From the UHGV virus genome UHGV-0819691: a stretch of 39,520 nt of DNA. One strand, 5' to 3'. The stretch's first letter is position 1. Every line of letters starts with the position of its first letter. Positions 5,767 through 30,067 of this stretch are shown piece after piece. The stretch is from a virus. The notes beneath the pieces are model-generated. The model was not told where the DNA came from. It was given only the letters and a program-made list of their open reading frames with translations, and did no database searches. The translations under genes and the position numbers were made by a program.

Positions 5767-5772
5767 AAAAAA

Positions 5773-5789: not shown

Positions 5790-6022
5790 GGTACTTGGAA
5801 TCATATATAACATTTTTGTTACAAATTTATTGTCATATAAATTAAAAAGTGTTGTTTTAATATCATAAACGTTTAACTTGAACTTACGTTCCCTATGTGT
5901 TAAAGTAACTCCATAATCCTCAAAGATTATATTTGCCGATGGAAGCCTTAGGACCCTTGTTTTTAAGGCTTTCTTTTGATTTAATTAAAAGGGCAAATAT
6001 ATTAATTTTGGAGGTAATTGTT

Positions 6023-6961: not shown

Positions 6962-6979
6962 GGCAGGAGGGAATATCAA

Positions 6980-7426
6980 ATGGAGAGAAGGAGGAAGGAT
7001 CGAGACAAAATTAGTTGGGGAATAACTATTATAAGTATAATTATAGCTACTATAGTTTTTTTCTGCAGAAAAAAAGTAACTATACGAGAACTTGACGAAT
7101 TATATAACTTGCTTACTATAAATACTATATTTGCTGGTTTCTTATATTCCATGCTTGGCAATATGGTAGAATTTTCAATGAGACCTGAGGTTAAAGAAAG
7201 AGACAAAGCGGGATATATAGAATCTTACTTCTCACCTATATATTTTGGTTTATTTTTCTTTTTATTTTCTATAGTGATTGAAGTTTTACTAATATTTTTT
7301 AATTTTAAATTCTTTATGTCGTTTTTTATCTATGCCCAAACTTGTACCTCGTTAATAGGTATAGTATTTTTTATATATAGTACAATACGTTTAAGAAAAA
7401 TGATAAATAACGTTCGTAACCACTAA
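6980..7426 (+). CDS. Small membrane protein (148 aa, four predicted TM helices); second gene of the moron
   Basis: RBS AGGAGGG 6 nt upstream, 18 nt after the previous stop, so translationally coupled. TM segments near residues 13-30, 44-63, 86-108 and 122-135. Confidence 0.5.
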   Translation: MERRRKDRDKISWGITIISIIIATIVFFCRKKVTIRELDELYNLLTINTIFAGFLYSMLGNMVEFSMRPEVKERDKAGYIESYFSPIYFGLFFFLFSIVIEVLLIFFNFKFFMSFFIYAQTCTSLIGIVFFIYSTIRLRKMINNVRNH

Positions 7427-7436
7427 AAAAGACCTC

Positions 7437-7470
7437 AACCAATCATCCTTGGCTGAGGTTTTTTCATTTT
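7437..7470 (+). terminator. Rho-independent terminator closing the moron operon
   Basis: ACCTCAACC...GGCTGAGGT stem (one mismatch) followed by TTTTTTCATTTTTT. Confidence 0.55.
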
Positions 7471-7510
7471 TTCTGAAAAAGTTAAGCAAATAATAGACTA
7501 AAAAAAACTA

Positions 7511-7593
7511 TGTGAGATAATAAACATAGAAAAAAGCTTCAGATACCTCCTAACCCTAGAGTCTTTCCCCAAAAGATAAGTATCTGAAGCTTT
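7511..7593 (+). repeat. Hairpin element copy 1: TGTGAGATAATAA motif plus a 14-bp perfect stem with a 33-nt loop containing TCCCCAAAA, followed by a T-run
   Basis: Motif at 7511-7523. Stem AAAGCTTCAGATAC (7533-7546) pairs with GTATCTGAAGCTTT (7580-7593). A-run before and T-run after. Paralogous to 8056-8134. Confidence 0.5.
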
Positions 7594-7776
7594 TTCTTTT
7601 TATGACTTAGAAATAATAGCATAAAATAATATATTCTACAAAGAATAAGTACAACCTAGTTTTTTGCTATTAAATATGTAATAATAAAGATGCCACCGCA
7701 ACGTAAAGAATGAAAAAAATAATTTATCTTTTCTCAGGTCCATTCTTTTTGTTTGCAGGAGTTGTGGTGGCTTTCC

Positions 7777-7850
7777 GTACCCTTAACTCAGTTGGTTAGA
7801 GCAGACGGCTCATAACCGTCCGGTCGTAGGCTCGAGTCCTACAGGGTACA
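7777..7850 (+). tRNA. tRNA with CAT anticodon (elongator Met or Ile2-lysidine type), 74 nt, CCA not encoded
   Basis: Manual cloverleaf: acceptor GTACCCT/AGGGTAC; D-arm ACTC-AGTTGGTTA-GAGC (one A·C mismatch at the first D-stem pair); anticodon arm GACGG-CTCATAA-CCGTC; variable CGGTC; T-arm GTAGG-CTCGAGT-CCTAC; discriminator A. G1-C72 is paired, so not an initiator. Confidence 0.8.
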
Positions 7851-9248: not shown

Positions 9249-10385
9249 TTACGAATTCTTTCTCAGATTTTCCATGATATCGACCGTTTCATTTCTCATC
9301 TTATCTGTTACATGCGAGTAAGTATCCATCGTAATTGAAATTCTGCTGTGGCCCAATCGTTCAGAGATTTCTTTCATTTTTGCGCCATTTTCGAGAAGAA
9401 GTGTAGCATGAGTATGTCTGAGAGAATGGAAGTTAAAAGAGAGGGAGAGTGCATTCGATATCCTCCTAGTATTCCATTTCACTACACTTGGCGTAACTAG
9501 CTCACCGTCTTCCTTCGTACATACTGCATTTGAATCAATGTAGAGCTTTCCATACTTCATTCGATTTTCTAATTGTTGTTTCTTATGTTTTTTCAGAATT
9601 GCTAGCAAGGTTTGTCCAATAAAAATCGTTCGATTGGAACTGCTTGTCTTTGGCGTACCATATACCCATGCGCCGTCATTCTTTACCATTTGTTTCTCTA
9701 CAGTAATTGTTCCATTTGAAAAATCGACATCATCCCACGTCAGACCACAAACTTCGCCAACGCGCATTCCCGTATAAAATCCAACATTCAAAGGAATATA
9801 GAAAGGATGTCCTTCAGGAGTAATTTCTAGCATATGATCAAAGTCCTCAAGAGAAATGATTTTTAGATCTTTTTTAGTCGTTGGTCGTTCTTCGTATTTT
9901 GGTATCTTTACATACAGCATAGGATTTTGCTTGATTAACCCCCAAGGATAAACCGCCATATTCAGCGCATTCTTAAGGACAGAGTGAGTAATAGTCATTG
10001 TTTTCTTCGAGTAACCCTTTTTAAATTCATCATTGATGAAATTTTGCAAAAGAGCAGGGGAGAGATCCGTAAGTTTTTTCTTTCCTAAATAACCATCTAT
10101 ATGATTTTTGATGGTAAATCGGTAGTTTTCATAGGTATTGTATTTTAGATTTAGTTTAACGTATTCCTCCATCCAAAAATCAAGGTATTGTTTTACTCGA
10201 GTATCTGTACCTAAAAAATATTGTCCTGTTTCGTCAATATCTGATAAAATTTTTCGTAAAGTAGCTTCTGCATCTGCTCTAGTATCTCCACCAACTTTTT
10301 CCACTTTTTTTCTTGAGCCATCATCATTGATGTCTTCAAAATAATAATACCAACGTTTCCCGCGTTTTCTCACACCGCCACGCAT
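9249..10385 (-). CDS. int: Tyrosine site-specific integrase (378 aa)
   Basis: C-terminal catalytic signature (R near residue 207), HSLRHTHAT (HxxR), and LGHSRISITMDTYSHV with the nucleophilic Tyr. N-terminal SAM-like/arm-binding region. Confidence 0.9.
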   Translation of the reverse strand: MRGGVRKRGKRWYYYFEDINDDGSRKKVEKVGGDTRADAEATLRKILSDIDETGQYFLGTDTRVKQYLDFWMEEYVKLNLKYNTYENYRFTIKNHIDGYLGKKKLTDLSPALLQNFINDEFKKGYSKKTMTITHSVLKNALNMAVYPWGLIKQNPMLYVKIPKYEERPTTKKDLKIISLEDFDHMLEITPEGHPFYIPLNVGFYTGMRVGEVCGLTWDDVDFSNGTITVEKQMVKNDGAWVYGTPKTSSSNRTIFIGQTLLAILKKHKKQQLENRMKYGKLYIDSNAVCTKEDGELVTPSVVKWNTRRISNALSLSFNFHSLRHTHATLLLENGAKMKEISERLGHSRISITMDTYSHVTDKMRNETVDIMENLRKNS

Positions 10386-19890: not shown

Positions 19891-20268
19891 TCAATTTTGA
19901 TTAAATATGTAATTTCTGAATTTACCAGATAATGGGAAGGTAAACATGCAAATTAAAAGTATCGTTTGGAAAATTAAAACTATAGTTAATTCTGTAGCGT
20001 TGAATTTTAAGTACAAGCTTAAATGTATTCCCCATTCAATCAAATTTAATCCAATTAAATAAAAGTAGTATCTCTTTTTAATCTTACAGTTTTTAAGAAA
20101 ATAGTAGCTAATATAATAATCTAATAAGACAAGTATAACCAATATATGTTTATCTATAGTGACTATAGTGTCATGTTTTTCTGAGAGTCTATGGAAATAC
20201 ATTAATAATGTTGGTAAAGGAATATATATTGTTAATAATGATATAAAGAAAAAGACTATAAATGGCAT
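19891..20268 (-). CDS. Opposite-strand small membrane protein (125 aa, ~4 TM), AT-rich moron
   Basis: RBS GGGAGTG 5 nt before ATG (minus strand). Very AT-rich. Sits antisense inside the rightward early operon, with a 120-bp promoter-bearing gap on its 5' side. Confidence 0.5.
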   Translation of the reverse strand: MPFIVFFFISLLTIYIPLPTLLMYFHRLSEKHDTIVTIDKHILVILVLLDYYISYYFLKNCKIKKRYYFYLIGLNLIEWGIHLSLYLKFNATELTIVLIFQTILLICMFTFPLSGKFRNYIFNQN

Positions 20269-20387
20269 TTCGTCACTCCCATATAAATAAAACTATGTAA
20301 AAAATATCACAATATTGTGTTGTGGTCAAATATTTTCATGTTATCTATTTTGTTATTATCGTCAATAAATGAAAAGGAGGAGGTAGA

Positions 20388-20597
20388 ATGATGGGTTTCA
20401 AAAAGAGTGACAAAGTAGTTACTAAAATAGGATCAGGCGTGTCATTATACTTCTTGGACAACGAATATTATATAGTTCAAGATGCTTCGATGCCTGGCAG
20501 AATCGTTTTGATTGACGAAGATAAACAGCGTTTGAGTTGGCCATCTAGTAAATTCGAATTATATGAGGAGGTGGCGGAAGGATCAGCAAGGCGTTGA
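20388..20597 (+). CDS. Hypothetical small early protein (69 aa)
   Basis: RBS AAAGGAGGAGG. Coding-like. Confidence 0.4.
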   Translation: MMGFKKSDKVVTKIGSGVSLYFLDNEYYIVQDASMPGRIVLIDEDKQRLSWPSSKFELYEEVAEGSARR

Positions 20598-20956
20598 AAT
20601 GGCTAGAAGCTGAAGCAGATAGACTCGAAAAAGAGTACATTGAAAATGATGATCCGAATAAAACAGTAAATCATAGCTTTATAGAAGGCTTCAATTATGC
20701 GTTAGTAAATTTACAGGCGATAGAAGAGCTAGAACTCAACGACAACCAGAAAATCGTGTTGGAGTGGTTGAAAAGCGAGACAATTTTAACTAGAGAAGCA
20801 CCAATATTATCTGTTAATGCTTTTTCTGATAAAAATTTACTAGGAAAATTACCTGATAAAGTACGCAAAGCTTATAAACTATTGGATTGTAAACAAGAAT
20901 ATGAAGTCCTAGCAGCATTCGCGCAATGGGGATTGGGACAGGAGGAAGCGGAATGA
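20594..20956 (+). CDS. Hypothetical early protein (120 aa)
   Basis: Overlapping stop/start. Acidic. Confidence 0.4.
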   Translation: MKWLEAEADRLEKEYIENDDPNKTVNHSFIEGFNYALVNLQAIEELELNDNQKIVLEWLKSETILTREAPILSVNAFSDKNLLGKLPDKVRKAYKLLDCKQEYEVLAAFAQWGLGQEEAE

Positions 20957-21186
20957 TCCACGAACTAAAAATACTACCAGAATATTTTGAAGCAGTCACA
21001 AGCGGACGCAAACAATTCGAGACCCGCAGGAATGATCGTAATTTTAAAGTTGGTAGTCAGTTAATTTTGAGAGAGTGGACTGGCGAAAAATATACAGGCG
21101 ACTCATACAAAGCAGAAATTACTTATATTACTGATTATGCTCAGCAAGATGGATATGTAGTTCTAGGAATTAGAGGGGTAAAGTAG
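20953..21186 (+). CDS. DUF3850 / ASCH(PUA)-like small protein
   Basis: MIHELKILPEYFEAVTSGRKQFETRRNDRNFKVGSQLILREW matches the DUF3850 pattern. RBS GGAGGAAG before ATG 20953. Confidence 0.45.
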   Translation: MIHELKILPEYFEAVTSGRKQFETRRNDRNFKVGSQLILREWTGEKYTGDSYKAEITYITDYAQQDGYVVLGIRGVK

Positions 21187-21546
21187 ATGAGTTTAATTGA
21201 AAAGATACAAGAAACACAAAATGAATCATTCGATAAATGGTTTGAACGTTGGTACGAAAAACAAAATTTAGAAGATACTATCATCAAGTCAGCAGCAAAA
21301 GGTTATAAAGGTTATTGTATTTCTATCAAAGAAACATGGGAATCCGCATCTAATTGGGATGAAAAACAAAAATATCTTGTAAGACGACTAAGAGACAAAA
21401 GAACTGTTAAAAAAATCCAAGAGAAACTAGGCGAAGGATTAAAAGTGAAATACGTCAATGATGATAAAACATATGATACTTTTTTTGGACTTAAAAGACA
21501 TGAACAATCGGAATATATATCAATTGAGTGGGGAGAAGCGGAATGA
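21187..21546 (+). CDS. Hypothetical early protein (119 aa)
   Basis: ORF with coding-like composition in the operon context. Confidence 0.35.
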   Translation: MSLIEKIQETQNESFDKWFERWYEKQNLEDTIIKSAAKGYKGYCISIKETWESASNWDEKQKYLVRRLRDKRTVKKIQEKLGEGLKVKYVNDDKTYDTFFGLKRHEQSEYISIEWGEAE

Positions 21547-21764
21547 GGAAAGCCATAAAAGAAAATTTTAAGTATATCTATCTAATGATGTCCTTAATCA
21601 TGGTCATTATATTTGGGCTCAATAATGAGTTTGTTAAAGCAGCAGTTACAGGGATTTTCGCATTTGAATACATCAAAATAATGATGTTATCTGAGCTATC
21701 AGAATATTTGAAAACATCAGTAATAATTTTGTATAAGGGCGACGAAAGCGAGGTCTCAGAATGA
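21528..21764 (+). CDS. Small membrane protein (78 aa)
   Basis: One to two hydrophobic helices. Overlapping starts. Confidence 0.3.
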   Translation: MGRSGMRKAIKENFKYIYLMMSLIMVIIFGLNNEFVKAAVTGIFAFEYIKIMMLSELSEYLKTSVIILYKGDESEVSE

Positions 21765-21964
21765 ACAACAGACACCGCAGAGTAGCCAAACTAAGAAAAC
21801 AAGAATTGAATGTGTTAAAGGCAAAGTTTGAAAAAGAATACGGAGTTTCTGTAGAAGAAGTATATAAAGTGGCAAGTCAGTGTGTTGCTATTGCAAGTAA
21901 GGCTATTCGTAAGTTTGGGATTTCGATATTAAATGATGATCGTAAATGGGAGGAAATGAGATGA
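21761..21964 (+). CDS. Hypothetical basic small protein (67 aa)
   Basis: Lys/Arg-rich. Operon context. Confidence 0.3.
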   Translation: MNNRHRRVAKLRKQELNVLKAKFEKEYGVSVEEVYKVASQCVAIASKAIRKFGISILNDDRKWEEMR

Positions 21965-22257
21965 AAATAAAAGACGGATTTTACGCTAGTAGTCATGGTA
22001 TCGGCGGTTTAATGCTAGACATGCCGATAAAGAACCCTAAAACACGTCAGAAATCAAAATTCAAAATCGGTGACATGGTCCGATGTAAAGCAGAAGAGTT
22101 CATCTATCCGTTTCGTGGATATGTAGAGCATGTCTATAATCATTCAGCAATCATTCACATTGAAAACACGATGGAATGCGATAAGTGGTTAGCGAAAAGC
22201 AAAGATAATTTAGCAGTGGCTCGTTTGGTGGATATGGAACTAATCAATGACAAATAA
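21961..22257 (+). CDS. Hypothetical protein (~98 aa)
   Basis: RBS GGGAGGAAATGAG before ATG 21961. Confidence 0.35.
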   Translation: MKIKDGFYASSHGIGGLMLDMPIKNPKTRQKSKFKIGDMVRCKAEEFIYPFRGYVEHVYNHSAIIHIENTMECDKWLAKSKDNLAVARLVDMELINDK

Positions 22258-22332
22258 AAAAGCCGGATCGCTCCGACTGATTCAATAAATCCAACACATT
22301 TATTATATCACATAAAGGAGCGGTTTGACTTG

Positions 22333-22746
22333 ATGCAATTGTTACGAGAGGTAGATTTCAAACAGACAAGATGTAATGCGAGAGATGTGCTGAAGAACTT
22401 TCGGCGTTTGGAGCGGATGGCAGGTCGCTCTTTGATAGATATTAAGTCGCCGATTATTACGGATATGCCGAAGGCACCGAAGCACGGCAATAAGGCAGAA
22501 GACGCGATCATTCAGATGATGGATATAGAAGCGGAGAGAGACGCGATTTTAGCAGCCTTGATGGCTCTTAGTCTGATTAGCCGTCAGATACTCTACTACA
22601 GCTTTTGTGTGCCAGATAGCTTCTCAAACTACAGAATTAGCCGTGAAGTGGGTTATTCAGAAAGAAGTATACAACGGATGAAGTCGGAAGCTCTAATAGA
22701 GTTTGCAGAAGCATATAAACACGGAAGAATAATTGCTTATAAATAA
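22333..22746 (+). CDS. ArpU-family late-gene transcriptional regulator
   Basis: Sigma-region-4-like C-terminus ...YSFCVPDSFSNYRISREVGYSERSIQRMKSEALIEFAEAY, typical of ArpU/Ltr late activators. Positioned just before the packaging genes. Confidence 0.7.
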   Translation: MQLLREVDFKQTRCNARDVLKNFRRLERMAGRSLIDIKSPIITDMPKAPKHGNKAEDAIIQMMDIEAERDAILAALMALSLISRQILYYSFCVPDSFSNYRISREVGYSERSIQRMKSEALIEFAEAYKHGRIIAYK

Positions 22747-22985
22747 TTTGGCGGTTTTTTGGCGGAATGATGGCGGTTTTTAGCTATTTACCAGTGATAT
22801 TATGGTAGTGTCGAAAGATTAGTGATAGGTCTGAGACAAAATAATAATAAAAGGAACATCGTTTTATTATTGTTTCACAATTAAGCTTCGATAGACAGCA
22901 GCGGAAATATTAAGAATAAGGATGTGAATTCCAACTCCTTCTAAATTGTTCTTATTATCTATCATCCGTTGCTGTCTATTAATTT

Positions 22986-23222
22986 ATGTATTGGAGGGTA
23001 TATAAAATGAATAACGCTTCCGAAAAAATTGATCAACTAACTATTTTAGTAAACCAAAGAATCGAAGATATTATCAAGGAATTCGAAGGTGAAAAGATTA
23101 AGAACATAAAGCTTACTTTAATGGATCATAAGTTCGAACTAAATTCGACAAAAAGGAAGATCGTTGAGCTTATAGAAGAAGAAATTGCTGTCCAGATCAA
23201 TGAGCAACAATTAACTAATTAA
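22986..23222 (+). CDS. Hypothetical small protein (78 aa)
   Basis: RBS TGGAGGG. Charged, coiled-coil-like. Confidence 0.35.
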   Translation: MYWRVYKMNNASEKIDQLTILVNQRIEDIIKEFEGEKIKNIKLTLMDHKFELNSTKRKIVELIEEEIAVQINEQQLTN

Positions 23223-23245
23223 TTTATGCATCGGAGGAAAAACGA

Positions 23246-23458
23246 ATGGATAAAGAAAGTGCACGAGAACATTATTTGAGTAAATTCAAACGTAACAACA
23301 AACCAGAAGAAGTTTTTGGATCAAGCGTTAAAGAGGTTGGAGAAAAACTAACTCAATTATTAAAAGAAGAAGACTTAACATATGATGAAGCATACGCAAG
23401 CCTTCAATATAGTTATAATTTATTAAAGTATGAGTCTAATTTCATAAAAGTAAAATAG
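23246..23458 (+). CDS. Hypothetical small protein (70 aa)
   Basis: RBS GGAGGAAAA. Confidence 0.35.
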   Translation: MDKESAREHYLSKFKRNNKPEEVFGSSVKEVGEKLTQLLKEEDLTYDEAYASLQYSYNLLKYESNFIKVK

Positions 23459-23469
23459 ATAATTATGTT

Positions 23470-23860
23470 ACTGTGGCGGAAAGGGTAGACGCTATATCTG
23501 GTAGGTATGCTTGAAGACCAGAGAAACAAGAGCTAAGCGCAACCATGCAAGGTTCGATTCCTTGCCAGTGACTTAAGGAACCTACGGAAACAATCAATCT
23601 TATCGGATGCCGATTGGTTGGCTGAATTAACCAGCGTGCCTGGAAATCAGTTAATAGGCATAAAATACTAGCGCAGACGTGCGCCACTCTCAGGTGTAGG
23701 TTAGGAGAGAAACATTAAGTTGGACTTGCTAGGAACACGGCAAGTTGCCTGTGTGAGGCTTTGTATCATTGCGTAGGTCTTGGCTAGAGACGGTATTCTA
23801 GTCCAGTGTTCACATAGGGTTATAACTGCATCTCATTGCTGAGGTGTAGTTTTTTACATA
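23470..23860 (+). ncRNA. Candidate structured non-coding RNA island (GC-richer, ORF-free) containing a tRNA-like T-arm
   Basis: About 400 nt with no convincing ORF on either strand. GC is visibly higher than the flanks. Contains GCAAGG-TTCGATT-CCTTGC (perfect T-stem/T-loop consensus) and several local hairpins (e.g. ATCGG-atg-CCGAT). Ends in terminator GATCACT-cctta-AGTGGTC plus T6. Confidence 0.25.
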
Positions 23861-23914
23861 TGAGATCACTCCTTAAGTGGTCTTTTTTATTTTACATAAA
23901 GGAGGAATGAACTC

Positions 23915-24097
23915 ATGAAAGAATATACTACTAAAGAATTTGAAGAAATGAAGCGATTAAAGAAGGACTTTGAAGAAGTTGGTCAAGGACAATCATTTAC
24001 GATTGGAACTATTCAACGTAGATTACGTTTCGGGAAGGAACGAGCTACTGCTCTTTATAATGATCTGATCTCAGATAGAGAGAAGGACTTCCAATGA
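23915..24097 (+). CDS. Hypothetical small protein (60 aa)
   Basis: RBS AAAGGAGGAATG. Confidence 0.35.
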   Translation: MKEYTTKEFEEMKRLKKDFEEVGQGQSFTIGTIQRRLRFGKERATALYNDLISDREKDFQ

Positions 24098-24147
24098 GAA
24101 ACTACCGCTGAGTGGTCTTTTTATTTGCGCAAAGGAGGTTAACAACA

Positions 24148-24315
24148 ATGTATAGACCACAATATTTAGAACAGAAGTATGAAGTAATCACTGTGCAAAA
24201 CGGTAACGGTGAGATAGTACGAAAGTATAGAAGACCAATAAAGAGCGATACATACAAACGAAAGGAAAGCAATGAAGTTATTCCATTGTATGGCAAAAGA
24301 AGAGCGAAGCATTAA
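24148..24315 (+). CDS. Hypothetical small basic protein (55 aa)
   Basis: RBS AAAGGAGG 10 nt before ATG 24148. Confidence 0.35.
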   Translation: MYRPQYLEQKYEVITVQNGNGEIVRKYRRPIKSDTYKRKESNEVIPLYGKRRAKH

Positions 24316-24340
24316 ATAAGATTGTGAAAGGAGACGGATC

Positions 24341-24685
24341 ATGACCGAGGAATTCTATAGATGGCTATTACAGTTGATAAGAGAAGATCGTTTGGTTAAG
24401 TTCTATCAGTCTCCTAAATGGCGCAGGCTTAGAGAGAAAGCGATGAAACGAGATCACTATGAATGCCAAGAGTGTAGAAGACTAGGCAAGTATCATAGAG
24501 TAGAGAACGTTCATCATATAAAGGAAGTCAAGGATAGACCTGACTTAGCTTTAGATTTAGATAATCTTATTTGTTTATGTGTTGAACATCATAATGAAGT
24601 TCATGGTAGATATCTTACAGCACTAGATAAACAAGAGAAGAAGATAGAAAGCTTTGCTAACTTCGATGCAAGTGAAAGGTGGTAA
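24341..24685 (+). CDS. HNH endonuclease (packaging-associated)
   Basis: CQECRRLGK...HHIKEV...CLCVEHHNEVH is a Zn-finger HNH motif. Located just upstream of terS/terL, as in cos-type HK97-like phages. Confidence 0.8.
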   Translation: MTEEFYRWLLQLIREDRLVKFYQSPKWRRLREKAMKRDHYECQECRRLGKYHRVENVHHIKEVKDRPDLALDLDNLICLCVEHHNEVHGRYLTALDKQEKKIESFANFDASERW

Positions 24686-24689
24686 GTGC

Positions 24690-24971
24690 ATGATCATCAA
24701 TGACAATGGCAGAGAGTATGACACAGAAAAGATTGAAGAGTATTCATCTTATACTCAGGGATTGATTAAACGTTTGATATACGTTCGCTATGTAGGTATT
24801 AGGGATCTGTTATCAGATAACTGTTGTAGCAAATACAAAGTGAATCAAGTAAGAGAAGCGTTGAATAAAGATAATAATGTTGAAAGAATAAAAAATGTTT
24901 TCGGATATAGCATTGAAGAGATTAATTATTACATTGACTTCGCTGAAGCTTTCATTCCGATGGTGAGATAA
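24690..24971 (+). CDS. Hypothetical protein (~93 aa)
   Basis: RBS AGGTGG before ATG 24690. Confidence 0.35.
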   Translation: MIINDNGREYDTEKIEEYSSYTQGLIKRLIYVRYVGIRDLLSDNCCSKYKVNQVREALNKDNNVERIKNVFGYSIEEINYYIDFAEAFIPMVR

Positions 24972-24974
24972 CCC

Positions 24975-25035
24975 CCCCTTAAAATAAATCGCAAATTTTT
25001 TGGGGGTGATGAAACGGAGGGGGCTGTCAGGAAAA
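24975..25035. other. Candidate cos site / packaging-initiation region (C8 ... G5 ... GAGGGGG tracts)
   Basis: AACCCCCCCCTTAAAATAAATCGCAAATTTTTTGGGGGTGATGAAACGGAGGGGGCT lies between the HNH-adjacent gene and terS. G/C tracts form an imperfect palindrome. Confidence 0.35.
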
Positions 25036-25073
25036 GAGATTTTTTCGAACTTTATCATGAAAGGAGGGCTAAA

Positions 25074-25388
25074 ATGTTTAAAAACGAATTGTCTCAAAAT
25101 CGCTACAGAGAAAAATTACGCCGCTCTTTAATAAGCCAATTGGAAAGTCAGAAAACAAATATTGAGCCATTCTTAGATAATGTTGATCGTTATATCAGTT
25201 TATGGGAAACGGCGATATCACTGGAAGAAGATATATCCGAGAACGGCATTAGATTGGAGAATGGTAAAAAGAATGAATCAGTAGCGTTGCTTGTTTCTGT
25301 CAACAAACAAATGGGATTGATGTTGGATAAACTTGCCATTACTCCTGAATTGGTAGGTGAAGCAAATGAATCAATTCCTGAGTTATAA
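25074..25388 (+). CDS. terS: Terminase small subunit (P27-family-like)
   Basis: 104 aa directly upstream of and overlapping terL. Pattern ...RYISLWETAISLEEDISENGIRLENGKKNES..LVSVNKQMGLMLDKLAITPE is typical of P27-type TerS. Confidence 0.65.
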   Translation: MFKNELSQNRYREKLRRSLISQLESQKTNIEPFLDNVDRYISLWETAISLEEDISENGIRLENGKKNESVALLVSVNKQMGLMLDKLAITPELVGEANESIPEL

Positions 25389-27060
25389 GCATATTGAAAA
25401 TTGGTTCAAAGCTATAGAAGAAGGCACTATCAAGGTATGCAAAGAGCAATTATTGCTAAAAAATTATCTAGAAGAAAGAGTCTTTACTAGAGAAGATATT
25501 TACTTCGATAAGCAGATGGTAGAGGATTCAATCAATATACCAGCACAATACTTTCCATTCGAATTAATTCCGTGGGAAAAATTTCTACAATGTTTTATTT
25601 ATGGTGTTCGATGGAAAAAAGATAAAACACTAGTGTTCAATAGATATCTTTCATTAATGGGACGTGGTAATGGTAAAACTGGTTTTGCTTCTTGGAACAA
25701 CTTCTTTCTACTCACCGCTAAACACGGTATTAAAAATTATGATATTGATATCTATGCCAATAATGAAAGCCAAGCAAAGACTAGTTTTGATGATGTATTT
25801 AAAGTAATTAAAGATCATCCTGATTTAGATAAAAAAGTATTTAAAGCTACGAAGGAAGTTATTCAAAATATCGCTACAAATAGCAAACTTCGTTATAACA
25901 CGGCAAACGCTAGAACAAAAGACGGGAAGCGACCAGGTGCAAACCGCTTTGATGAAATTCACGAAAATGAAGATTATTCAATGATAAATGTGGCTACTTC
26001 TGGTGGTGGTAAAATTCGAGATTATAGAGAATTTTATGATACAACTAATGGTCATGTTCGTGGTGGTCCGCTTGATGACATTATAGAAGAATCAAAAATG
26101 ATTCTTTCTGGAGAACTTGGAATTGACAAGGATGGAGCAGAATTTTCTAGTTTGTTTCCATTTATTTGTCGCTTGGATAACGATAATGAAGTTGATGATC
26201 CCGACATGTGGGAAAAAGCTTGTCCAACTATTAATTACAATGCAGATTTAAAACGGAAAATGTTTCAAGAATACTCTCAAATGCAACGTAATGCTGGTTT
26301 AAGACTTACGTTCATGACAAAACGAATGAACAGACCTATGGAAGATACACGATTTGCTGTTGCTTCATATGATGATGTTCTGCATACGAAAGAAAAAGAA
26401 TTTCCTGAAAAAATGGATGAAGTGATAGGAACAGTCGATTTTGCTGATAGACGAGATTTTGCCAGTGTTGGGTTGCTAGGAAAATATGATAAAGATGTGT
26501 ATTTTACCCAACATACTTTTATCCACGAATCAGCTCTTCGATTACAGAACATAAAACGAGAGGTTATAGATATTTCTATAGATCAAGGAAAATCACAAAT
26601 CGTTCATGGGAAAAATATAGAAGCTGATTATATTGTAGGTTGGTTTCTTGAAATGAGTAATAAATATTATATTAAAAAAATCGCTATGGATATGTACCGT
26701 GCAAAAATATTGAAGCCCGCTTTAGAAGAAGCAGGTTTTACTGTGGAAATTGTTCGAAGCGGATCTGTTACACATGGTATGTTAAAAGATCTGGTTGATG
26801 ACCTTTTTATTAATCAACGTTTATTTTTTGGTGACGATGCGATTATGCGTTGGTATTGCATGAATGTATATGAAGAGCATATTTCTAATGGAAATATACG
26901 CTATGAAAAAATAGAACCTGAAACTAGAAAAACGGATGGCTTTTTTTCATTCCTTCATGGTTTGAATTTTTTAGATGATATTTATGATTCTGCTCCTGTA
27001 ACAGTCACAAATAGCTCAGTAGAAAATACAGGAACTGGATTTACTCCTCTAGTATTCTAA
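25357..27060 (+). CDS. terL: Terminase large subunit
   Basis: Walker-A-like LMGRGNGKTGFAS, length 567 aa. Followed by the portal. Confidence 0.8.
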   Translation: MKQMNQFLSYKHIENWFKAIEEGTIKVCKEQLLLKNYLEERVFTREDIYFDKQMVEDSINIPAQYFPFELIPWEKFLQCFIYGVRWKKDKTLVFNRYLSLMGRGNGKTGFASWNNFFLLTAKHGIKNYDIDIYANNESQAKTSFDDVFKVIKDHPDLDKKVFKATKEVIQNIATNSKLRYNTANARTKDGKRPGANRFDEIHENEDYSMINVATSGGGKIRDYREFYDTTNGHVRGGPLDDIIEESKMILSGELGIDKDGAEFSSLFPFICRLDNDNEVDDPDMWEKACPTINYNADLKRKMFQEYSQMQRNAGLRLTFMTKRMNRPMEDTRFAVASYDDVLHTKEKEFPEKMDEVIGTVDFADRRDFASVGLLGKYDKDVYFTQHTFIHESALRLQNIKREVIDISIDQGKSQIVHGKNIEADYIVGWFLEMSNKYYIKKIAMDMYRAKILKPALEEAGFTVEIVRSGSVTHGMLKDLVDDLFINQRLFFGDDAIMRWYCMNVYEEHISNGNIRYEKIEPETRKTDGFFSFLHGLNFLDDIYDSAPVTVTNSSVENTGTGFTPLVF

Positions 27061-27079
27061 CTTGAAAGGAGGTGAGAAA

Positions 27080-28258
27080 GTGGGGATTTTTCAAAAGGCG
27101 GTAGGATACTTCACAAAAAAAGCAACAGTTCCTTTAGAAGAATATTTTTGTAAATTGCAAGTTGATTTTGTGTATCGAAAATTTGCAATTGAAACTTGTA
27201 TTGATTTGATTGCAAATGCGATGAGCAAAGCGGAATTCAAGTCATATGAAGATGGAAAAAATAAAAAGAATGATCTTTACTATAGGCTAAATGTAGCTCC
27301 TAATAAGAAAAATAATGCAACAGAATTTAGAAAAAAACTGATCAGGAGATTAATATTCTACAATGAAGTATTGATCGTTTCTCCGTCTAATAATTCTAGC
27401 GAAATATTTATTGCGGATAGTTGGGATATCACAGAGTATGCATTAAAAGATGATGTGTTTTCTCAAGTGCAAATTAACAACATAGTCCTTGATAGAGAAT
27501 TTCTAGAAAGTGATGTTATCTATATAAAATACGCAGATCAACAAATTAGGCAACTAGTCGATGCGTATTATCAAGCGTATGGGAAACTCATTTCTAGTGC
27601 CATGAATGTTTACAAGCGTTCTAACGCTCGTAGATACGTACTGAAAGGGAATTTATTCCGACCGCAAGACAATACAACACAAGACCAAATCAATAAAATG
27701 ATGACATCGCAGTTCAAACCATTCATGGAAGCGGACAATGCAGGGGCAGTATTCCAACTACAAGAAGGATTCAATTTAGAAGATTTCAGCGGAAACTTCC
27801 AAAGCAATTCAAGAGATATAAAAAACTTAATAGACGACATCTTTGAGATGACAGCAGCAGCGTTTCACGTTCCGAAAAACCTACTAAAGGGAGACATGAG
27901 TGGGTTATCGGATCAAGTGGACGCTTTTTTAATGTTCGAAATCATTCCAATTGCTGAACTTATTCAGGATGCGTTTAACGCTAGTCTCTATGAAGCAGAA
28001 GAATACTTGTCAGGGAATTTTGTACGTGTTGATACAACTATGATCAAGATTACTAGCTTCAAAGATTTGGTTGACGCTATTGATGTAGGCATTAGAAATG
28101 GGGTATTTACAATCAACGAAGGAAGAGAACGCGTTGGAAGTGATCGCTCTGATAAGGCGATGGCAGATGAAATATTTATAACTAAAAACAACCAACAAGT
28201 ATCGAAAGGAGGTGAGGCGAATGACGACAATGAAAACATTTCTAGCGGTAAAGAATGA
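27080..28258 (+). CDS. Portal protein (HK97-family-like)
   Basis: ~390 aa directly after terL and before the prohead protease. GGAGGTG RBS before GTG 27080; the TTG at 27062 is the alternative start. Confidence 0.6.
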   Translation: MGIFQKAVGYFTKKATVPLEEYFCKLQVDFVYRKFAIETCIDLIANAMSKAEFKSYEDGKNKKNDLYYRLNVAPNKKNNATEFRKKLIRRLIFYNEVLIVSPSNNSSEIFIADSWDITEYALKDDVFSQVQINNIVLDREFLESDVIYIKYADQQIRQLVDAYYQAYGKLISSAMNVYKRSNARRYVLKGNLFRPQDNTTQDQINKMMTSQFKPFMEADNAGAVFQLQEGFNLEDFSGNFQSNSRDIKNLIDDIFEMTAAAFHVPKNLLKGDMSGLSDQVDAFLMFEIIPIAELIQDAFNASLYEAEEYLSGNFVRVDTTMIKITSFKDLVDAIDVGIRNGVFTINEGRERVGSDRSDKAMADEIFITKNNQQVSKGGEANDDNENISSGKE

Positions 28259-28907
28259 AGGAACAGTACCGCAAATTTTTATTCAGGGATTTATTGGCTC
28301 TAGTTGGTTCTTTGAAGGGAATACTGATAAGGGAATCAAAAATATTTTGGATAGTCTAGGTGATCAAGAAGAAATTGAAGTAGTGATTAATTCAAACGGT
28401 GGAGACGTATTTCAAGGGATTGCTATTGGGAACTTACTTAAGTCAAATAAAGCAAAAGTTAACGTTGTGATTAACGGCTTAGCCGCTAGTGCTGCTTCAA
28501 TTATCGCAATGGCTGGCGATACTATAAAAATTTACAACAATGCACAATTGATGATTCACCGCGCTTCCACATATGGAGAAGGAAATGTCGATGACTTCCG
28601 CACGATTGCTGATCAATTGGAATCAATTGATAAATCGGTAAAGGCTTCATATAAAACACGATTCAACGGTACAGATGAAGCATTGCAAGAACTTCTTGAA
28701 AAAGAATCGTTTATGGATGCAGAAACAGCTTTGAGTTATGGATTGGTCGATGAAATTATCGATGCAGAAAATAGCGCAGGTACTGAAGCTAAGAAAGAAC
28801 AAAGCGTTGAAGAAATTTTGAATGACGTTGAAGAAAAAAGAGCAGAAAAAATTGCTGCATTTACAGCAGCATTAAATAAAACATTTGGACAAGGAGATGC
28901 AAAATAA
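28212..28907 (+). CDS. ClpP-like (S14) prohead maturation protease
   Basis: NSNGGDVFQGIAIGNLLKS...INGLAASAASIIAMAGD...MIHRAS is the ClpP-fold serine protease pattern. Confidence 0.7.
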   Translation: MRRMTTMKTFLAVKNEGTVPQIFIQGFIGSSWFFEGNTDKGIKNILDSLGDQEEIEVVINSNGGDVFQGIAIGNLLKSNKAKVNVVINGLAASAASIIAMAGDTIKIYNNAQLMIHRASTYGEGNVDDFRTIADQLESIDKSVKASYKTRFNGTDEALQELLEKESFMDAETALSYGLVDEIIDAENSAGTEAKKEQSVEEILNDVEEKRAEKIAAFTAALNKTFGQGDAK

Positions 28908-30067
28908 TGACAGTTAAAAATTTAAAAGGTGTAACAGCTGCAAGCGACCAATTGATGAAAGCTTTTAAAGATGGTAACGAAGAATCTTTTAGCGCAGCTA
29001 TGGTAAGTTTATCTAAGGAAATTCAGGATAAAATTTTAGAAGAAGCAACAGCAAAAAATCAAGATCAATTAGTATTAATGAACCGTGGTCAGCGTGTACT
29101 AACTACACAAGAAACAAAATTCTATAACGAAGTAGTGAATAACGAAGGTTTTGCAGGAGTTGAAGAATTAGTACCAGCTACTGTATTTGAACGCGTATTT
29201 GAAGATCTAGAACAATCTCATCCACTATTGCAAAAAATTACTTTTGTTAACACAACTGGTGTAACAGAATGGATTGTGTCACGTGGAGTCAATCCAGCAT
29301 GGTGGGGTAAACTTTGCGAAGCTGTTAAAAAAGTTTTAGATAATGGCTTTGACGTAATTAACATGAAGCAGTTCAAGCTATCAGGTTATATTCCTGTATG
29401 TAAGGCAATGCTTGACTTAGGTCCAGTATGGTTAGATCGTTATGTCCGTACTGTTTTAGTAGAATCATTGAGAATTGCATTAGAACAAGCAATCGTTGAT
29501 GGTACTGGTAAAGATATGCCAGTCGGAATGATGCGTGATATGAGCAAACAAACTAGCGGAGAATATGCTGAAAAAACAGCAGAACCTATTACAGCTTTAG
29601 ATGCTGCAACTATGGGCGGTTTGATGGCACGACTATCAAAATTCAATATCGAAGGCGTAGATGATCCGATTTATCGTAATGTAAATCCTTCTGATGTGGT
29701 CCTAATTGTGAATCCAACAGATTACTGGTCTAAAGTTTTCCCAGCTAAAACCGTACTAACTGCTAATGGAGAATATGTACAAGTATTGCCAGTACCAGTT
29801 TCAGACTTGCAGTCAACAGCTGTGCCAGAAGGAAAAGCAGTTATTGGGGTAGCTTCAGATTACTTCATGGGTGTAGGATCTACGCTAAAAATTGAAGCTT
29901 CAGATGAATACCATTTTGTTGAAGACGAACGCATTTATCTAGCTAAACAATATGCAAACGGACAACCTAAACGTAATGATAGTTTCATTGTATTAGATAT
30001 TAGCGCTTTGGGAACTACTACTACAACTACAAAACCAACAACCACAACAACTACAACACAAGCGTAG
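28907..30067 (+). CDS. Major capsid protein (HK97 fold) with C-terminal T6-KP-T7-QA tail
   Basis: Position after the protease, 386 aa. The C-terminus ...LGTTTTTTKPTTTTTTTQA* is encoded at 30014-30064. Confidence 0.7.
   Translation: MTVKNLKGVTAASDQLMKAFKDGNEESFSAAMVSLSKEIQDKILEEATAKNQDQLVLMNRGQRVLTTQETKFYNEVVNNEGFAGVEELVPATVFERVFEDLEQSHPLLQKITFVNTTGVTEWIVSRGVNPAWWGKLCEAVKKVLDNGFDVINMKQFKLSGYIPVCKAMLDLGPVWLDRYVRTVLVESLRIALEQAIVDGTGKDMPVGMMRDMSKQTSGEYAEKTAEPITALDAATMGGLMARLSKFNIEGVDDPIYRNVNPSDVVLIVNPTDYWSKVFPAKTVLTANGEYVQVLPVPVSDLQSTAVPEGKAVIGVASDYFMGVGSTLKIEASDEYHFVEDERIYLAKQYANGQPKRNDSFIVLDISALGTTTTTTKPTTTTTTTQA

What the first reader, a model, noticed from the sequence alone, without database searches (positions are those of the whole stretch)
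23460..23900. ORF-free GC-richer structured island with a perfect tRNA T-arm motif between the ArpU-regulated small genes and the HNH/terminase block
About 400 nt with no credible ORF on either strand (the only ORF is a 74-codon minus-strand frame with no RBS). GC is visibly above the surrounding ~35%. There are many short hairpins and the sequence GCAAGG-TTCGATT-CCTTGC, which is exactly the tRNA T-stem/T-loop consensus (T54-Psi55-C56-R57-A58). No full cloverleaf can be completed: the complementary acceptor strand TCACTGG is absent. It is therefore not a tRNA but may be a tRNA-like domain of a larger RNA (tmRNA-like, viral tRNA-like structure, or a ribozyme/intron remnant). It terminates in a clean hairpin plus T6 at ~23866-23890.
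Basis: seen in the sequence. Interest (0 to 1): 0.65.

Follow-up and report, generated by a model that had tools for sequence, protein, structure and literature searches.

The report
tRNA-capped structured RNA island in phage
This ORF-free stretch of an Enterococcus prophage encodes a 422-nt, highly folded noncoding RNA that starts with a degenerate tRNA-Leu look-alike and ends in terminators; it belongs to an unannotated, modular RNA family shared by unrelated Enterococcus phages, and in the large lytic ones it sits right behind the enigmatic ROOL RNA.

Summary
Window 23467-23890 (+) lies between real phage genes, has no ORF, is richer in GC (0.47 against about 0.31) and is structured.

The acceptor strand is present: GTTACTG (23467-73) pairs with CAGTGAC (23566-72), and the first 108 nt fold into a four-arm cloverleaf. 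It is not a decoding tRNA. Its central arm has a 14-nt loop, and ARAGORN and Rfam both reject it.

It is a tRNA-Leu-derived tRNA-like cap (TLS). I found 85 unique versions in Enterococcus phages. Stems are 99% paired with compensatory changes, D- and T-loops co-vary, and T follows the discriminator in 84 of 85.

Behind the cap come structured modules with covariation. In this window they are a four-way junction ("core1"), a pseudoknotted module ("X") and two terminators.

I found 62 unique "TLS ... conserved terminator" islands of 213-801 nt with swappable cargo. Core1 is about 95% identical in lytic Schiekviruses. There the island lies in the tRNA cluster, 13 nt after a ROOL RNA.

No Rfam family, record annotation or paper covers it.

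Best reading (0.5): an accessory stable ncRNA cassette, cut out by RNase P and RNase Z at the tRNA-like cap. What the cargo does is unknown.

The parts
23467..23573 (+). tRNA-Leu-derived tRNA-like cap (TLS). Acceptor stem 23467-73 / 23566-72. U8-G9 at 23474-75. D arm 23476-92, with the sequence GGCGGAAAGGGTAGACGC typical of tRNA-Leu. Central hairpin 23497-23522 (6 bp, 14-nt loop). Variable stretch 23523-46. T arm 23547-65 (6-bp stem, loop TTCGATT). Discriminator U at 23573.
   Evidence: The cloverleaf is the minimum-energy fold. Across 43 distinct acceptor/T-arm combinations, 99.3% of cells are paired and 5 of 13 pairs show compensatory changes. One-sided changes are G.U on this strand, apart from an A.C mismatch in four variants. 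There are 85 unique versions in which D-loop and T-arm flavours co-vary. A true tRNA-Leu(UAA) in L122 has the same acceptor stem and matches the window's first 26 nt at 22 positions. ARAGORN and Rfam do not call it a tRNA.
23574..23578 (+). Short linker. It starts with the T that follows the discriminator in 84 of 85 unique TLSs. Inferred RNase Z cleavage site, between 23573 and 23574.
   Evidence: T at this position: 84 of 85 TLSs, 44 of 64 true tRNAs in the same loci, and 31% T in the loci overall. RNase Z of Firmicutes cuts CCA-less precursors just after the discriminator (PMC1874595, PMC8549757). Cleavage here is inferred, not shown.
23577..23713 (+). Module 'core1', a multi-helix junction closed by P1. 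P1 is 23579-86 / 23695-702, P2 is 23591-99 / 23612-20, and P4 is 23671-75 / 23680-84 with loop GACG. A variable hairpin region (P3) lies at about 23621-61.
   Evidence: RNAalifold on 19 unique sequences gives 30 pairs, 5 of them with compensatory changes in P2 and P4. The module alone folds with z = -2.1. It is about 95% identical in the lytic Schiekviruses and is the only part of window 20000-30000 that they share. About 47 IMG/VR contigs carry it. P1 never varies, so it is untested.
23714..23815 (+). Module 'X'. Hairpin Xa is 23723-29 / 23740-46. Hairpin Xc is 23782-88 / 23797-803. A pseudoknot joins the Xa loop GAACAC (23733-38) to GUGUUC (23806-11). A middle hairpin carries the conserved loop GGCUUUGUA.
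   Evidence: On 7 distinct variants, 97.9% of cells are paired and 9 of 20 pairs show compensatory changes, 2 of them in the pseudoknot. Slid controls give 28-46% paired. I derived the structure by eye from these same sequences, which inflates the contrast somewhat.
23824..23857 (+). First terminator-like hairpin (T1): 12-bp stem, 4-nt loop, then a T-run.
   Evidence: Terminator scan. This hairpin together with T2 folds with z = -4.7. It is present in 6 of 62 unique islands, including those of the Schiekviruses.
23862..23890 (+). Conserved 3' boundary and intrinsic terminator (T2): GAGATCACTCCTTAAGTGGTCTTTTTT. The ribosome-binding site of the next gene follows directly.
   Evidence: Terminator scan. 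The 50-nt block 23854-23905 is found at 84-94% identity in about 90 of the loci collected. It closes all 62 islands by construction of the search.
23246..23458 (+). Upstream flanking gene (70 aa, phrog_17280), ending 9 nt before the RNA.
   Evidence: No sigma-70-type promoter is seen between this gene and the RNA, so co-transcription is likely. That is an inference.
23915..24097 (+). Downstream flanking gene (60 aa, phrog_13806). It travels with the identical island in locus L018.
   Evidence: Pfam FtsK_gamma matches only at E = 0.015, below its cut-off.

Best explanation
The region is a gene for a noncoding RNA of about 422 nt (23467-23888/90, plus strand). It is an accessory cassette of an Enterococcus prophage.

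Architecture (shown): a tRNA-Leu-derived cap that has lost its anticodon arm, then two structured modules, then two intrinsic terminators.
- The cap keeps the acceptor stem, the D arm, the T arm and C56 at the tRNA elbow.
- Core1 is a multi-helix junction. X is three hairpins plus a pseudoknot.

Inferred mechanism:
1. The island is transcribed with the genes upstream of it. In many relatives it is transcribed from a conserved region of about 70 nt directly in front of the cap, at the head of the late operon.
2. Host RNase P cuts at the 5' end of the cap and RNase Z cuts after its discriminator, as they do for the host's CCA-less pre-tRNAs.
3. This separates the RNA from its neighbours. Each piece keeps base-paired ends, which in Firmicutes protect against RNase J1 and 3' exonucleases (the protection is my own inference from general knowledge of RNA decay, not something tested or cited here). 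In the Schiekviruses the 5' cut would also make the 3' end of the ROOL RNA.
4. The released, terminator-ended structured cargo then acts in trans.

The cargo's biochemical role is not known. From its company (tRNAs, ROOL) and from its being dispensable and swappable, I expect a role in host take-over or counter-defence, not an essential step of phage gene expression.
For: It is a real, selected RNA on the plus strand.
- Compensatory changes occur in the cap, core1 and X including its pseudoknot.
- One-sided changes are nearly all G.U on the plus strand.
- There is no conserved ORF.
- Core1 is about 95% identical between this temperate phage and 150-kb lytic Herelleviridae that share nothing else in the 10 kb tested.

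The cap is tRNA-derived and shaped like a processing substrate.
- It folds de novo into a cloverleaf.
- A true tRNA-Leu has the same acceptor stem and a near-identical D arm.
- D-loop and T-arm flavours co-vary, and C56 is kept in all flavours.
- CCA is never encoded. T follows the discriminator in 84 of 85 caps, against 69% of true tRNAs in the same loci.
- A second slot shows the same decay. It holds a true tRNA-Lys(UUU) in L003 and L008, and a derivative without an anticodon arm but with intact acceptor and T arms in L004 and L011.
- RNase P and RNase Z handle CCA-less precursors this way in Firmicutes (PMC1874595, PMC8549757).

Cassette logic.
- 62 unique islands of 213-801 nt have a conserved cap, a conserved terminator and variable cargo.

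It is accessory rather than essential.
- The closest phage, 4995_1 (95% identical), keeps the activator gene and the HNH/terminase genes.
- It replaces window 22988-24105 with unrelated DNA.

It is not a leader of protein genes in the Schiekviruses.
- There the island lies inside the tRNA cluster, 13 nt after ROOL.
Against: - There are no expression data. Transcription, RNA ends and cleavage by RNase P and RNase Z are all inferred.
- The acceptor/T-arm stack is 13 bp (7 + 6), not the canonical 12. One cap flavour has a non-canonical T loop (GGCAGUR) and no GG in the D loop. Recognition by the processing enzymes is therefore not guaranteed.
- In the temperate phages the island always points the same way as the late genes, and its terminator is followed at once by the next gene's ribosome-binding site. 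That also fits a leader or attenuator.
- The window's island lacks the module that is commonest in the family (Y, in 50 of 62 islands). It could be a crippled copy.
- Sequence diversity is low, with mean column identity of 90% in core1. P1 of core1 is invariant and so untested.
Confidence: 0.5

Rival explanations
1. Late-operon leader or attenuator. The island is the 5' leader of the late transcript. Its terminator(s) limit read-through into the HNH, terminase and structural genes, much as the lambda pR'-tR' 6S transcript does. Alternatively the folded RNA acts in cis on RNA polymerase to suppress terminators, like HK022 put RNA.
For: - In many relatives a divergent gene starts about 95 nt upstream of the cap. 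The promoter for the island and for all downstream late genes must therefore lie in that conserved stretch.
- The terminator is followed directly by the next gene's ribosome-binding site.
- Position and orientation are constant between the ArpU-like activator and the packaging genes.
- Three terminator-like sites precede HNH in the window.
Against: - Phage 4995_1 has the same activator, the same intergenic region and 97%-identical HNH/terminase genes, but no island.
- In the Schiekviruses the island sits among RNA genes, behind ROOL and ahead of a promoter-like sequence and tRNAs, not ahead of protein genes.
- The cargo is freely swapped, which is unexpected for a dedicated cis-regulator.
- The island occurs with both the HNH/cos-type and another type of packaging module.
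Confidence: 0.17
2. tRNA mimic or decoy. The cap itself is the active part. It would bind or titrate a host factor that recognises the tRNA elbow or top half, such as a tRNA-targeting defence nuclease, a modification enzyme or the CCA-adding enzyme. The cargo modules would be further decoys. The island would then be a counter-defence RNA locus.
For: - The whole top half plus the elbow is conserved, not just a 5' helix.
- Islands also carry true tRNAs, notably tRNA-Lys(UUU). From my own knowledge, tRNA-Lys is a known target of anticodon nucleases.
- The island is accessory and sits in a variable slot. Relatives carry a type I toxin-antitoxin pair or an unrelated 309-aa ORF in the same slot.
Against: - No defence or anti-defence gene is linked to it, and no experiment exists.
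- The discriminator is U in 58 of 85 caps. From my own knowledge, bacterial LeuRS requires A73, so charging by LeuRS is unlikely.
- This reading is compatible with the best explanation rather than exclusive of it.
Confidence: 0.15
3. Decaying remnant of a phage tRNA array with no present function. The tRNA-like piece would be a pseudogene and the rest recombination debris.
For: - The anticodon arm is lost.
- Islands are mosaic.
- The window copy lacks the family's commonest module.
- The whole cassette is dispensable.
Against: - 99% of cap stem positions stay paired through compensatory changes.
- There is covariation in core1 and in X, including a pseudoknot.
- Unrelated phage families share core1 at about 95% identity.
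- T after the discriminator is kept in 84 of 85 caps.
- Pseudogenes would not keep these features.
Confidence: 0.06
4. A DNA-level site: cos or pac packaging site, replication origin, or attachment site carrying a tRNA 3' fragment.
For: - It lies just upstream of the packaging genes.
- It is richer in GC and full of inverted repeats.
- Attachment sites of phages often contain tRNA 3' halves.
Against: - The prophage's own attachment site is beside tRNA-Met 7777-7850, near the integrase-sized ORF.
- The island occurs with different packaging modules and, in the Schiekviruses, far from the terminase genes.
- Wobble pairs are G.U on one strand only. On the other strand, or in duplex DNA, they would be A.C mismatches.
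- A complete cloverleaf is present, not a 3' fragment.
Confidence: 0.03

Closest known systems
ROOL RNA (Rfam RF03087) and GOLLD RNA, the large ornate phage/prophage RNAs of unknown function
   Same: - It is phage-borne and found in Lactobacillales, and it is noncoding with multiple junctions and a pseudoknot.
- It is associated with tRNA genes. The literature describes ROOL and GOLLD as 'often near tRNA islands', with tRNAs sometimes inside the GOLLD linker (PMC12286853, PMC5737381).
- It is not essential.
- In the Schiekviruses this island begins 13 nt after the ROOL RNA. Some relatives embed true tRNAs between modules, as GOLLD does.
   Different: - Neither covariance model matches the window or the larger relatives, even at E <= 10.
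- It is smaller (213-801 nt) and mosaic, with swappable modules.
- It always starts with a tRNA-derived cap.
- It is so far essentially confined to Enterococcus phages.
- Multimer or cage formation is untested.
MALAT1/MEN-beta with mascRNA, and the mitochondrial 'tRNA punctuation' model
   Same: - A tRNA-like cloverleaf that does not decode is embedded in a longer transcript.
- RNase P and RNase Z cuts at it would define the ends of the neighbouring RNAs.
- The Schiekvirus layout, ROOL then a 13-nt spacer then the cap, mirrors lncRNA followed by mascRNA.
   Different: - Those systems are eukaryotic or organellar, whereas this is in phages of Firmicutes.
- Processing is inferred from anatomy only.
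- The comparison rests on my own knowledge of those systems, not on a tool result.
True phage tRNA-Leu, such as tRNA-Leu(UAA) at L122 10233-10317
   Same: - The acceptor stem is the same (GTCACTG / CAGTGAC).
- The D arm is of the tRNA-Leu type (GGCGGAA..GGTAGAC).
- The T loop is TTCGA-type.
- 22 of the first 26 nt are identical to the window.
   Different: - The anticodon arm and long variable arm are replaced by 30-200 nt of variable hairpins.
- The T stem has 6 bp instead of 5.
- The discriminator is mostly U, not A.
- CCA is not encoded.
- tRNA finders do not detect it.
tmRNA tRNA-like domain, plant-virus 3' tRNA-like structures, and bacterial YrlA (Y RNA-like) RNAs
   Same: An acceptor/T-arm mimic is joined to non-tRNA structure.
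   Different: - In tmRNA the mimic is formed by the two termini and there is a tag reading frame. ARAGORN finds none.
- Viral tRNA-like structures sit at the 3' end and are aminoacylated.
- No Rfam model of any of these families matches.
Stable RNAs 'species 1 and 2' of the phage T4 tRNA gene cluster
   Same: These are small stable RNAs of unknown function, encoded among phage tRNA genes and matured by the tRNA-processing machinery (my own knowledge).
   Different: There is no sequence relationship. The T4 RNAs are about 140 nt and are not modular. This was not tested here.

Membership tests
tRNA (Rfam RF00005 / ARAGORN) | 7-bp acceptor stem closed by the 5' and 3' ends | tested here: met
   23467-73 pairs with 23566-72 (one U.G pair). 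Across 43 variants 99.3% of cells are paired.
tRNA (Rfam RF00005 / ARAGORN) | T arm with T-Psi-C-R-A loop, and D arm with GG | tested here: met
   In the window the T loop is TTCGATT and the D loop is AAAGGGTAGA. The T stem has 6 bp, not 5. Other family flavours depart from the consensus.
tRNA (Rfam RF00005 / ARAGORN) | 5-bp anticodon stem with a 7-nt loop (U33, anticodon) | tested here: not met
   The central arm has a 6-bp stem and a 14-nt loop. In relatives this region varies from about 30 to 200 nt.
tRNA (Rfam RF00005 / ARAGORN) | Detected by the family's covariance model or by ARAGORN | tested here: not met
   No hit at 23350-24000, even at E <= 10. ARAGORN reports only tRNA-Met at 7777-7850.
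tmRNA | tRNA-like domain formed by the RNA's two termini, plus a tag-peptide reading frame | tested here: not met
   ARAGORN finds no tmRNA. Both acceptor strands lie within the first 108 nt.
ROOL RNA (RF03087) | Match to the ROOL covariance model | tested here: not met
   No hit in the window. The same search finds ROOL at 263-268 bits just upstream of the homologous island in the Schiekviruses.
GOLLD RNA | Match to the Rfam GOLLD model (conserved 3' domain) | tested here: not met
   No hit in the window at E <= 10, nor in the 680-nt relative within L003 3000-5600.
GOLLD/ROOL-like kind (phage large ncRNA near tRNAs) | Phage-borne, ORF-free, covarying multi-junction structure, next to or containing tRNAs | tested here: met
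GOLLD/ROOL-like kind (phage large ncRNA near tRNAs) | Homo-oligomeric assembly (nanocage) | not testable with these tools
   This needs native gels, SEC-MALS or cryo-EM.
RNase P / RNase Z substrate (CCA-less pre-tRNA-like) | Acceptor/T-arm stack, an elbow, no encoded CCA, and U after the discriminator | tested here: met
   The stack is 13 bp, not 12.
RNase P / RNase Z substrate (CCA-less pre-tRNA-like) | Actual cleavage at the predicted sites | not testable with these tools
   This needs in vitro cleavage assays or end mapping.
Intrinsic terminator | GC-containing hairpin followed by a T-run | tested here: met
   Sites at 23824-23851 and 23862-23884. Folding z = -4.7.
Group I intron in tRNA-Leu | Group I core (P3-P9) inserted in the anticodon loop | tested here: not met
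   No Rfam intron hit. The insert in the window is 54 nt of simple hairpin and single strand.

The most novel reading that the evidence does not exclude
Enterococcus phages carry a previously undescribed modular RNA cassette system. tRNA genes have been converted into non-decoding processing caps, independently from tRNA-Leu and tRNA-Lys lineages. These caps frame swappable structured RNA domains. The released domains would work in trans, either as partners of ROOL (for example by joining or regulating its RNA assemblies) or as decoys against host defences. That would give the first functional handle on the ROOL/GOLLD class of phage RNAs.
Probability: 0.25. Interest if true: 0.85.

Novelty: new variant of a known kind. 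Interest (0 to 1): 0.66.

Why it matters
Phage-encoded large structured RNAs (ROOL, GOLLD) are abundant and form striking RNA-only cages, yet they still have no known function. This island is a third, unannotated RNA family from the same niche.

- It is physically coupled to ROOL in one phage group.
- It stands alone in temperate phages, where it can be deleted or swapped. That makes the question experimentally approachable in a genetically tractable pathogen, E. faecium or E. faecalis.
- It shows tRNA genes being recycled into anticodon-less "punctuation" elements, in two independent lineages. That is a concrete and testable case of tRNA-like processing signals in bacteria.
- If processing works as inferred, the cap-and-terminator frame would be a ready-made natural design for expressing stable RNAs in Firmicutes.
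- For annotation, about 100 viral contigs and several reference phage genomes carry it unannotated, or covered by spurious "hypothetical protein" calls.

Tried and rejected
- Rfam at gathering threshold and at E <= 10 gave only noise here (snoRNA, mcrA). tRNA, tmRNA, ROOL, GOLLD, Y RNA-like, viral tRNA-like structures, introns and ribozymes are therefore all rejected as memberships.
- An rli28 (Rfam) hit lies 340 nt downstream of a cap in L058. It proved to be a neighbouring type I toxin-antitoxin pair (rli28/RatA), not part of the island (PMC9484302).
- A covariance model of core1, searched over about 100 loci that have a cap but no core1 motif, found no divergent copies. Core1 is one cargo among several, not a hidden universal core.
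- A scan of viral contigs anchored on core1's single-stranded motifs, meant to free P1 and P5 for covariation, added only 3 near-identical loci. P1 therefore remains invariant and untested.
- A proposed P5 helix (CTCTC/GAGAG, a pseudoknot with P1) is not supported. One variant, seen, breaks it.
- Promoter search. No convincing sigma-70 promoter lies directly upstream in the window. Reading the upstream contexts by eye was inconclusive.
- Protein coding. The minus-strand 74-codon frame looked conserved between the window and L009, but it is broken in 11 of 19 variants.
- Literature. No paper contains the sequences. Searches on tRNA-like elements, Enterococcus phage, ROOL and Schiekvirus found no description. 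Fremin et al. 2023 (PMC10690425) predicted 8,495 candidate structured RNAs from the same IMG/VR collection. Their models are not held, so overlap could not be checked.
- Complementarity between the cap's central loop (UAUGCUU) and core1's AGGCAUA was noted. I dismissed it because the same cap allele occurs with cargo that lacks core1 (L098).
Full report
**1. The observation**

Window 23459-23914 lies between two real phage genes: 23246-23458 (phrog_17280) and 23915-24097 (phrog_13806).
- The only ORFs in it are minus-strand frames of 74 and 38 codons.
- GC is 0.47 at 23500-23800, against 0.30-0.33 on either side.
- The plus strand folds better than shuffled sequence (z = -3.2). The minus strand does so less (z = -2.7).
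- The T-arm sequence GCAAGG-TTCGATT-CCTTGC is at 23547-23565.
- Two terminator-like hairpins with T-runs lie at 23824-23857 and 23862-23890. The region 22700-24400 has four such sites, against 0.6 expected.
- The context is as described. An ArpU-like activator is at 22330-22746 (phrog_248, E = 4e-46). HNH is at 24341-24685, TerS at 25074-25388 and TerL at 25357-27060.

One statement is wrong: the acceptor partner is not absent.
- The 3' strand is CAGTGAC (23566-72), and GTTACTG (23467-73) pairs with it through one U.G pair.
- The 108 nt fold on their own into a cloverleaf: 7-bp acceptor stem, D arm, a central hairpin of 6 bp with a 14-nt loop, and a 6-bp T arm.

**2. It is not a tRNA, but it descends from one**

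ARAGORN and Rfam find only tRNA-Met at 7777-7850 in the window. Nothing relevant appears at 23350-24000, even at E <= 10.

The 5' motif GTCACTGTGGCGGAA occurs in more than 119 IMG/VR contigs.
- About 118 of 152 instances are followed, 76-248 nt later, by a 6-bp/7-nt T arm and CAGYGAC.
- I collected 85 unique versions.
- One exact match to the motif is a true tRNA-Leu(UAA), L122 10233-10317.
- The D arm, GGCGGAA..GGTAGACGC, is the classic tRNA-Leu D arm. That identification is from my own knowledge.

I therefore call the element a tRNA-Leu-derived tRNA-like structure (TLS).
- Its centre, where the anticodon arm and long variable arm should be, is replaced by discrete and unrelated "alleles" of 30-200 nt.
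- On 43 distinct acceptor/T-arm combinations, 99.3% of cells are paired and five of 13 pairs show compensatory changes. One-sided changes are G.U on the plus strand, apart from an A.C mismatch in four variants.
- D-loop and T-arm flavours co-vary: AAAGGGTAGA goes with GCAAGG/GCAATG-TTCGATT, AAGTAGAAGA with GAGTGG-GGCAGTR, and AATAGGTAGA with GCAAGG-TGCAAAT.
- C56 of the T loop is kept in all flavours.
- CCA is never encoded.
- The base after the discriminator is T in 84 of 85. It is T in 44 of 64 true tRNAs in the same loci, and T makes up 31% of those loci overall.

**3. The rest of the window's RNA**

*Core1 (23577-23713).*
- It matches seven 150-kb lytic Enterococcus Schiekviruses (Herelleviridae). 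Identity is about 89% over the whole island and about 95% over core1.
- It is the only part of window 20000-30000 that they share.
- Nineteen unique core1 sequences give a junction closed by P1 (23579-86 / 23695-702).
- There are compensatory changes in P2 (CAATCAA/TTGGTTG against CAATTCA/TGAATTG) and in P4 (GCGCA/TGCGC, TCTCA/TGAGA, GCACA/TGTGC).
- P1 itself never varies, so it is untested.

*Module X (23714-23815).*
- Hairpins Xa and Xc have conserved loops and covarying stems.
- A pseudoknot joins the Xa loop GAACAC (23733-38) to GUGUUC (23806-11). In relatives it changes to GAAUAC/GUAUUC and GAUAC/GUAUC.
- 97.9% of cells are paired and nine of 20 pairs are compensatory. Slid controls give 28-46% paired.
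- I drew this structure from the same seven sequences, so the contrast is somewhat flattering.

*Coding potential.* The minus-strand frame that is open in the window is broken by stops or a frameshift in 11 of 19 variants.

**4. The family**

The 50-nt block around the last terminator (23854-23905) is conserved in about 90 of the loci collected. Taking "TLS ... that terminator" as a unit gives 62 unique islands of 213-801 nt, none with a conserved ORF.

| Cargo | Islands (of 62) |
|---|---|
| Y hairpin (GCAACCGAGG...GTAGGTTGC) | 50 |
| core1 | 18 |
| X | 15 |
| true tRNAs (Lys-UUU, Ile, and ARAGORN calls with anticodons UUA and UCA) | 10 |
| first terminator hairpin (T1) | 6 |

Source.
- The smallest islands are TLS + Y + terminator.
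- The window's island (TLS + core1 + X + T1 + T2, 422 nt) lacks Y and is therefore atypical. An identical copy sits in a different upstream context in L018.
- A covariance model of core1 finds no hidden copies in the other islands.
- The slot in front of core1 shows a second decay series. It holds a true tRNA-Lys(UUU) in L003 and L008, and an anticodon-arm-less derivative with intact acceptor and T arms in L004 and L011.
- Hosts: 13 of 16 species-representative genomes with the TLS pattern are Enterococcus, and one is Furfurilactobacillus. Four Enterococcus "plasmids" of 36-58 kb also carry the element.
- In all annotated records the element is unannotated or covered by short "hypothetical protein" calls.

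**5. Context**

*Temperate phages.* The order is always ArpU-like activator, a few small genes, the island, small genes, then the packaging genes.
- In many of them a divergent gene starts about 95 nt upstream of the TLS.
- The promoter for the island and the late genes must therefore lie in that conserved stretch.

*Closest sequenced phage.* Phage 4995_1 (E. faecium, 95% identical) keeps the activator gene, the intergenic region and the HNH/terminase genes.
- It replaces window 22988-24105 with unrelated DNA that encodes a 309-aa ORF.
- The island is therefore an accessory cassette in a variable slot. Another relative carries a type I toxin-antitoxin pair there (PMC9484302).

*Schiekviruses.* The island lies inside the tRNA gene cluster and begins 13 nt after a ROOL RNA (263-268 bits).

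**6. How it most likely works**

Shown:
- It is a conserved, covarying, ORF-free plus-strand RNA structure.
- It has a tRNA-shaped 5' cap and a terminator at its 3' end.
- It is modular and dispensable.

Inferred:
- The cap is treated as a CCA-less pre-tRNA. RNase P would cut at 23467 and RNase Z after 23573.
- In Firmicutes, RNase Z cuts CCA-less precursors immediately 3' of the discriminator, and RNase P acts on such precursors (PMC1874595, PMC8549757).
- The preference for U after the discriminator is from my own recollection of Pellegrini et al. 2003, which I could not read.
- Cleavage would free the structured cargo from the neighbouring RNA. In the Schiekviruses it would also form the 3' end of ROOL, as RNase P does for MALAT1 at mascRNA.
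- Two tRNA lineages lost the anticodon arm but kept the acceptor stem, T arm and elbow. That argues for selection on the processing and shape features, not on decoding.

The function of the cargo is unknown. I assign 0.5 to this reading.

Rivals:

| Reading | Confidence | Main point |
|---|---|---|
| Late-operon leader or attenuator, or put-like antiterminator | 0.17 | Favoured by position. Disfavoured by 4995_1, by the Schiekvirus context and by cargo swapping. |
| tRNA-mimic decoy or counter-defence | 0.15 | Compatible with the main reading. |
| Functionless remnant | 0.06 | Against the covariation. |
| DNA site (cos, pac, att) | 0.03 | Against strand-specific G.U pairs, varied packaging modules, and the att site at tRNA-Met. 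|

**7. Comparison with what is known, and novelty**

It behaves like the ROOL/GOLLD kind: a phage-borne ornate RNA near tRNAs, with unknown function (PMC5737381, PMC12286853). It fails both covariance models, so it is not a member of either family.
- Its cap works like mascRNA-type punctuation, but in a phage of Firmicutes.
- No Rfam family, no record annotation and no paper in the held library contains it.
- I could not check the 8,495 unnamed candidate RNAs of Fremin et al. 2023.

I rate it a new variant of a known kind, with interest 0.66. The main limits are that every step of expression and processing is inferred and that sequence diversity is modest.

Noticed in passing
window 7777-7850 and 9249-10385: tRNA-Met (59 bits) is followed about 1.4 kb later by a 378-aa minus-strand ORF of integrase size. 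Window 1-7850 looks like host chromosome, so the prophage appears to be integrated beside tRNA-Met. The ORF was not searched against any family.
   Followed up: partly
window 23876-23893 and 24108-24125: The 3' half of the island's terminator, (A/G)AGTGGTCTTTTT(T)ATTT followed by ..AAAGGAGG, recurs at the end of the next small gene. It also marks the point where homology with phage 4995_1 resumes (window 24106). It looks like a repeated junction sequence between mosaic cassettes.
   Followed up: partly
L001/L002 2297-2883 (also L013, L015, L019): Enterococcus Schiekviruses carry a ROOL RNA (263-268 bits) inside their tRNA cluster. It is unannotated in the GenBank records, and the homologous island starts 13 nt downstream of it.
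   Followed up: yes
L003 4189-4263, L008 1093-1167, L010 4119-4194, L020 2200-2276; islands of L109 and L147: True tRNAs embedded in related islands include tRNA-Lys(UUU) and tRNA-Ile. ARAGORN also calls tRNAs with anticodons UCA ('SeC') and UUA ('Stop'). These could be suppressor tRNAs, or tRNAs whose anticodon is drifting.
   Followed up: partly
L004 and L011, just upstream of core1: A second tRNA-like element of about 71 nt sits in the slot that holds tRNA-Lys in L003. It has an acceptor stem, a D arm and a canonical T arm but no anticodon arm. It appears to be an independent tRNA-to-mimic conversion.
   Followed up: partly
L170 (phage 4995_1) 1137-2552: In the closest phage the whole cassette (two small ORFs, the RNA and a 60-aa ORF) is replaced. 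The replacement holds a 267-nt ORF and a 309-aa ORF of unknown function, the latter apparently with its own promoter.
   Followed up: partly
L058 10643-10957: A type I toxin-antitoxin pair (rli28 at 143 bits, RatA at 55 bits) lies about 340 nt downstream of a tRNA-like cap, in the same variable slot.
   Followed up: partly
window 23915-24097: The 60-aa ORF after the RNA (phrog_13806) has a weak match to the FtsK gamma winged-helix domain (E = 0.015, below Pfam's cut-off). It accompanies the identical island in L018.
   Followed up: partly
about 70 nt upstream of the cap in L009, L023, L025, L032, L053, L069 and others: A conserved element, TTTCAGCGGACCACTCGCTGATAACTAAAATTATACGCTTAGTATTTATTTTCACAATATTAATTT, lies between a divergent gene and the cap. 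It contains the inverted repeat CAGCG-N7-CGCTG. It probably holds the late promoter or an operator.
   Followed up: no
L001 about 3370-3470: After the island's terminators, phage EFP01 has a good sigma-70-like promoter (TTGACT, 17 nt, TACTAT). A short sequence with another T-arm motif follows (TAAGGTTCGAATCCTTA). It may be a further tRNA-like RNA.
   Followed up: no
L051, L054, L062, L066, L087, L097, L107, L127, L129, L149: Some contigs carry two tRNA-like caps of different flavours in tandem, about 200 nt apart within one island.
   Followed up: no
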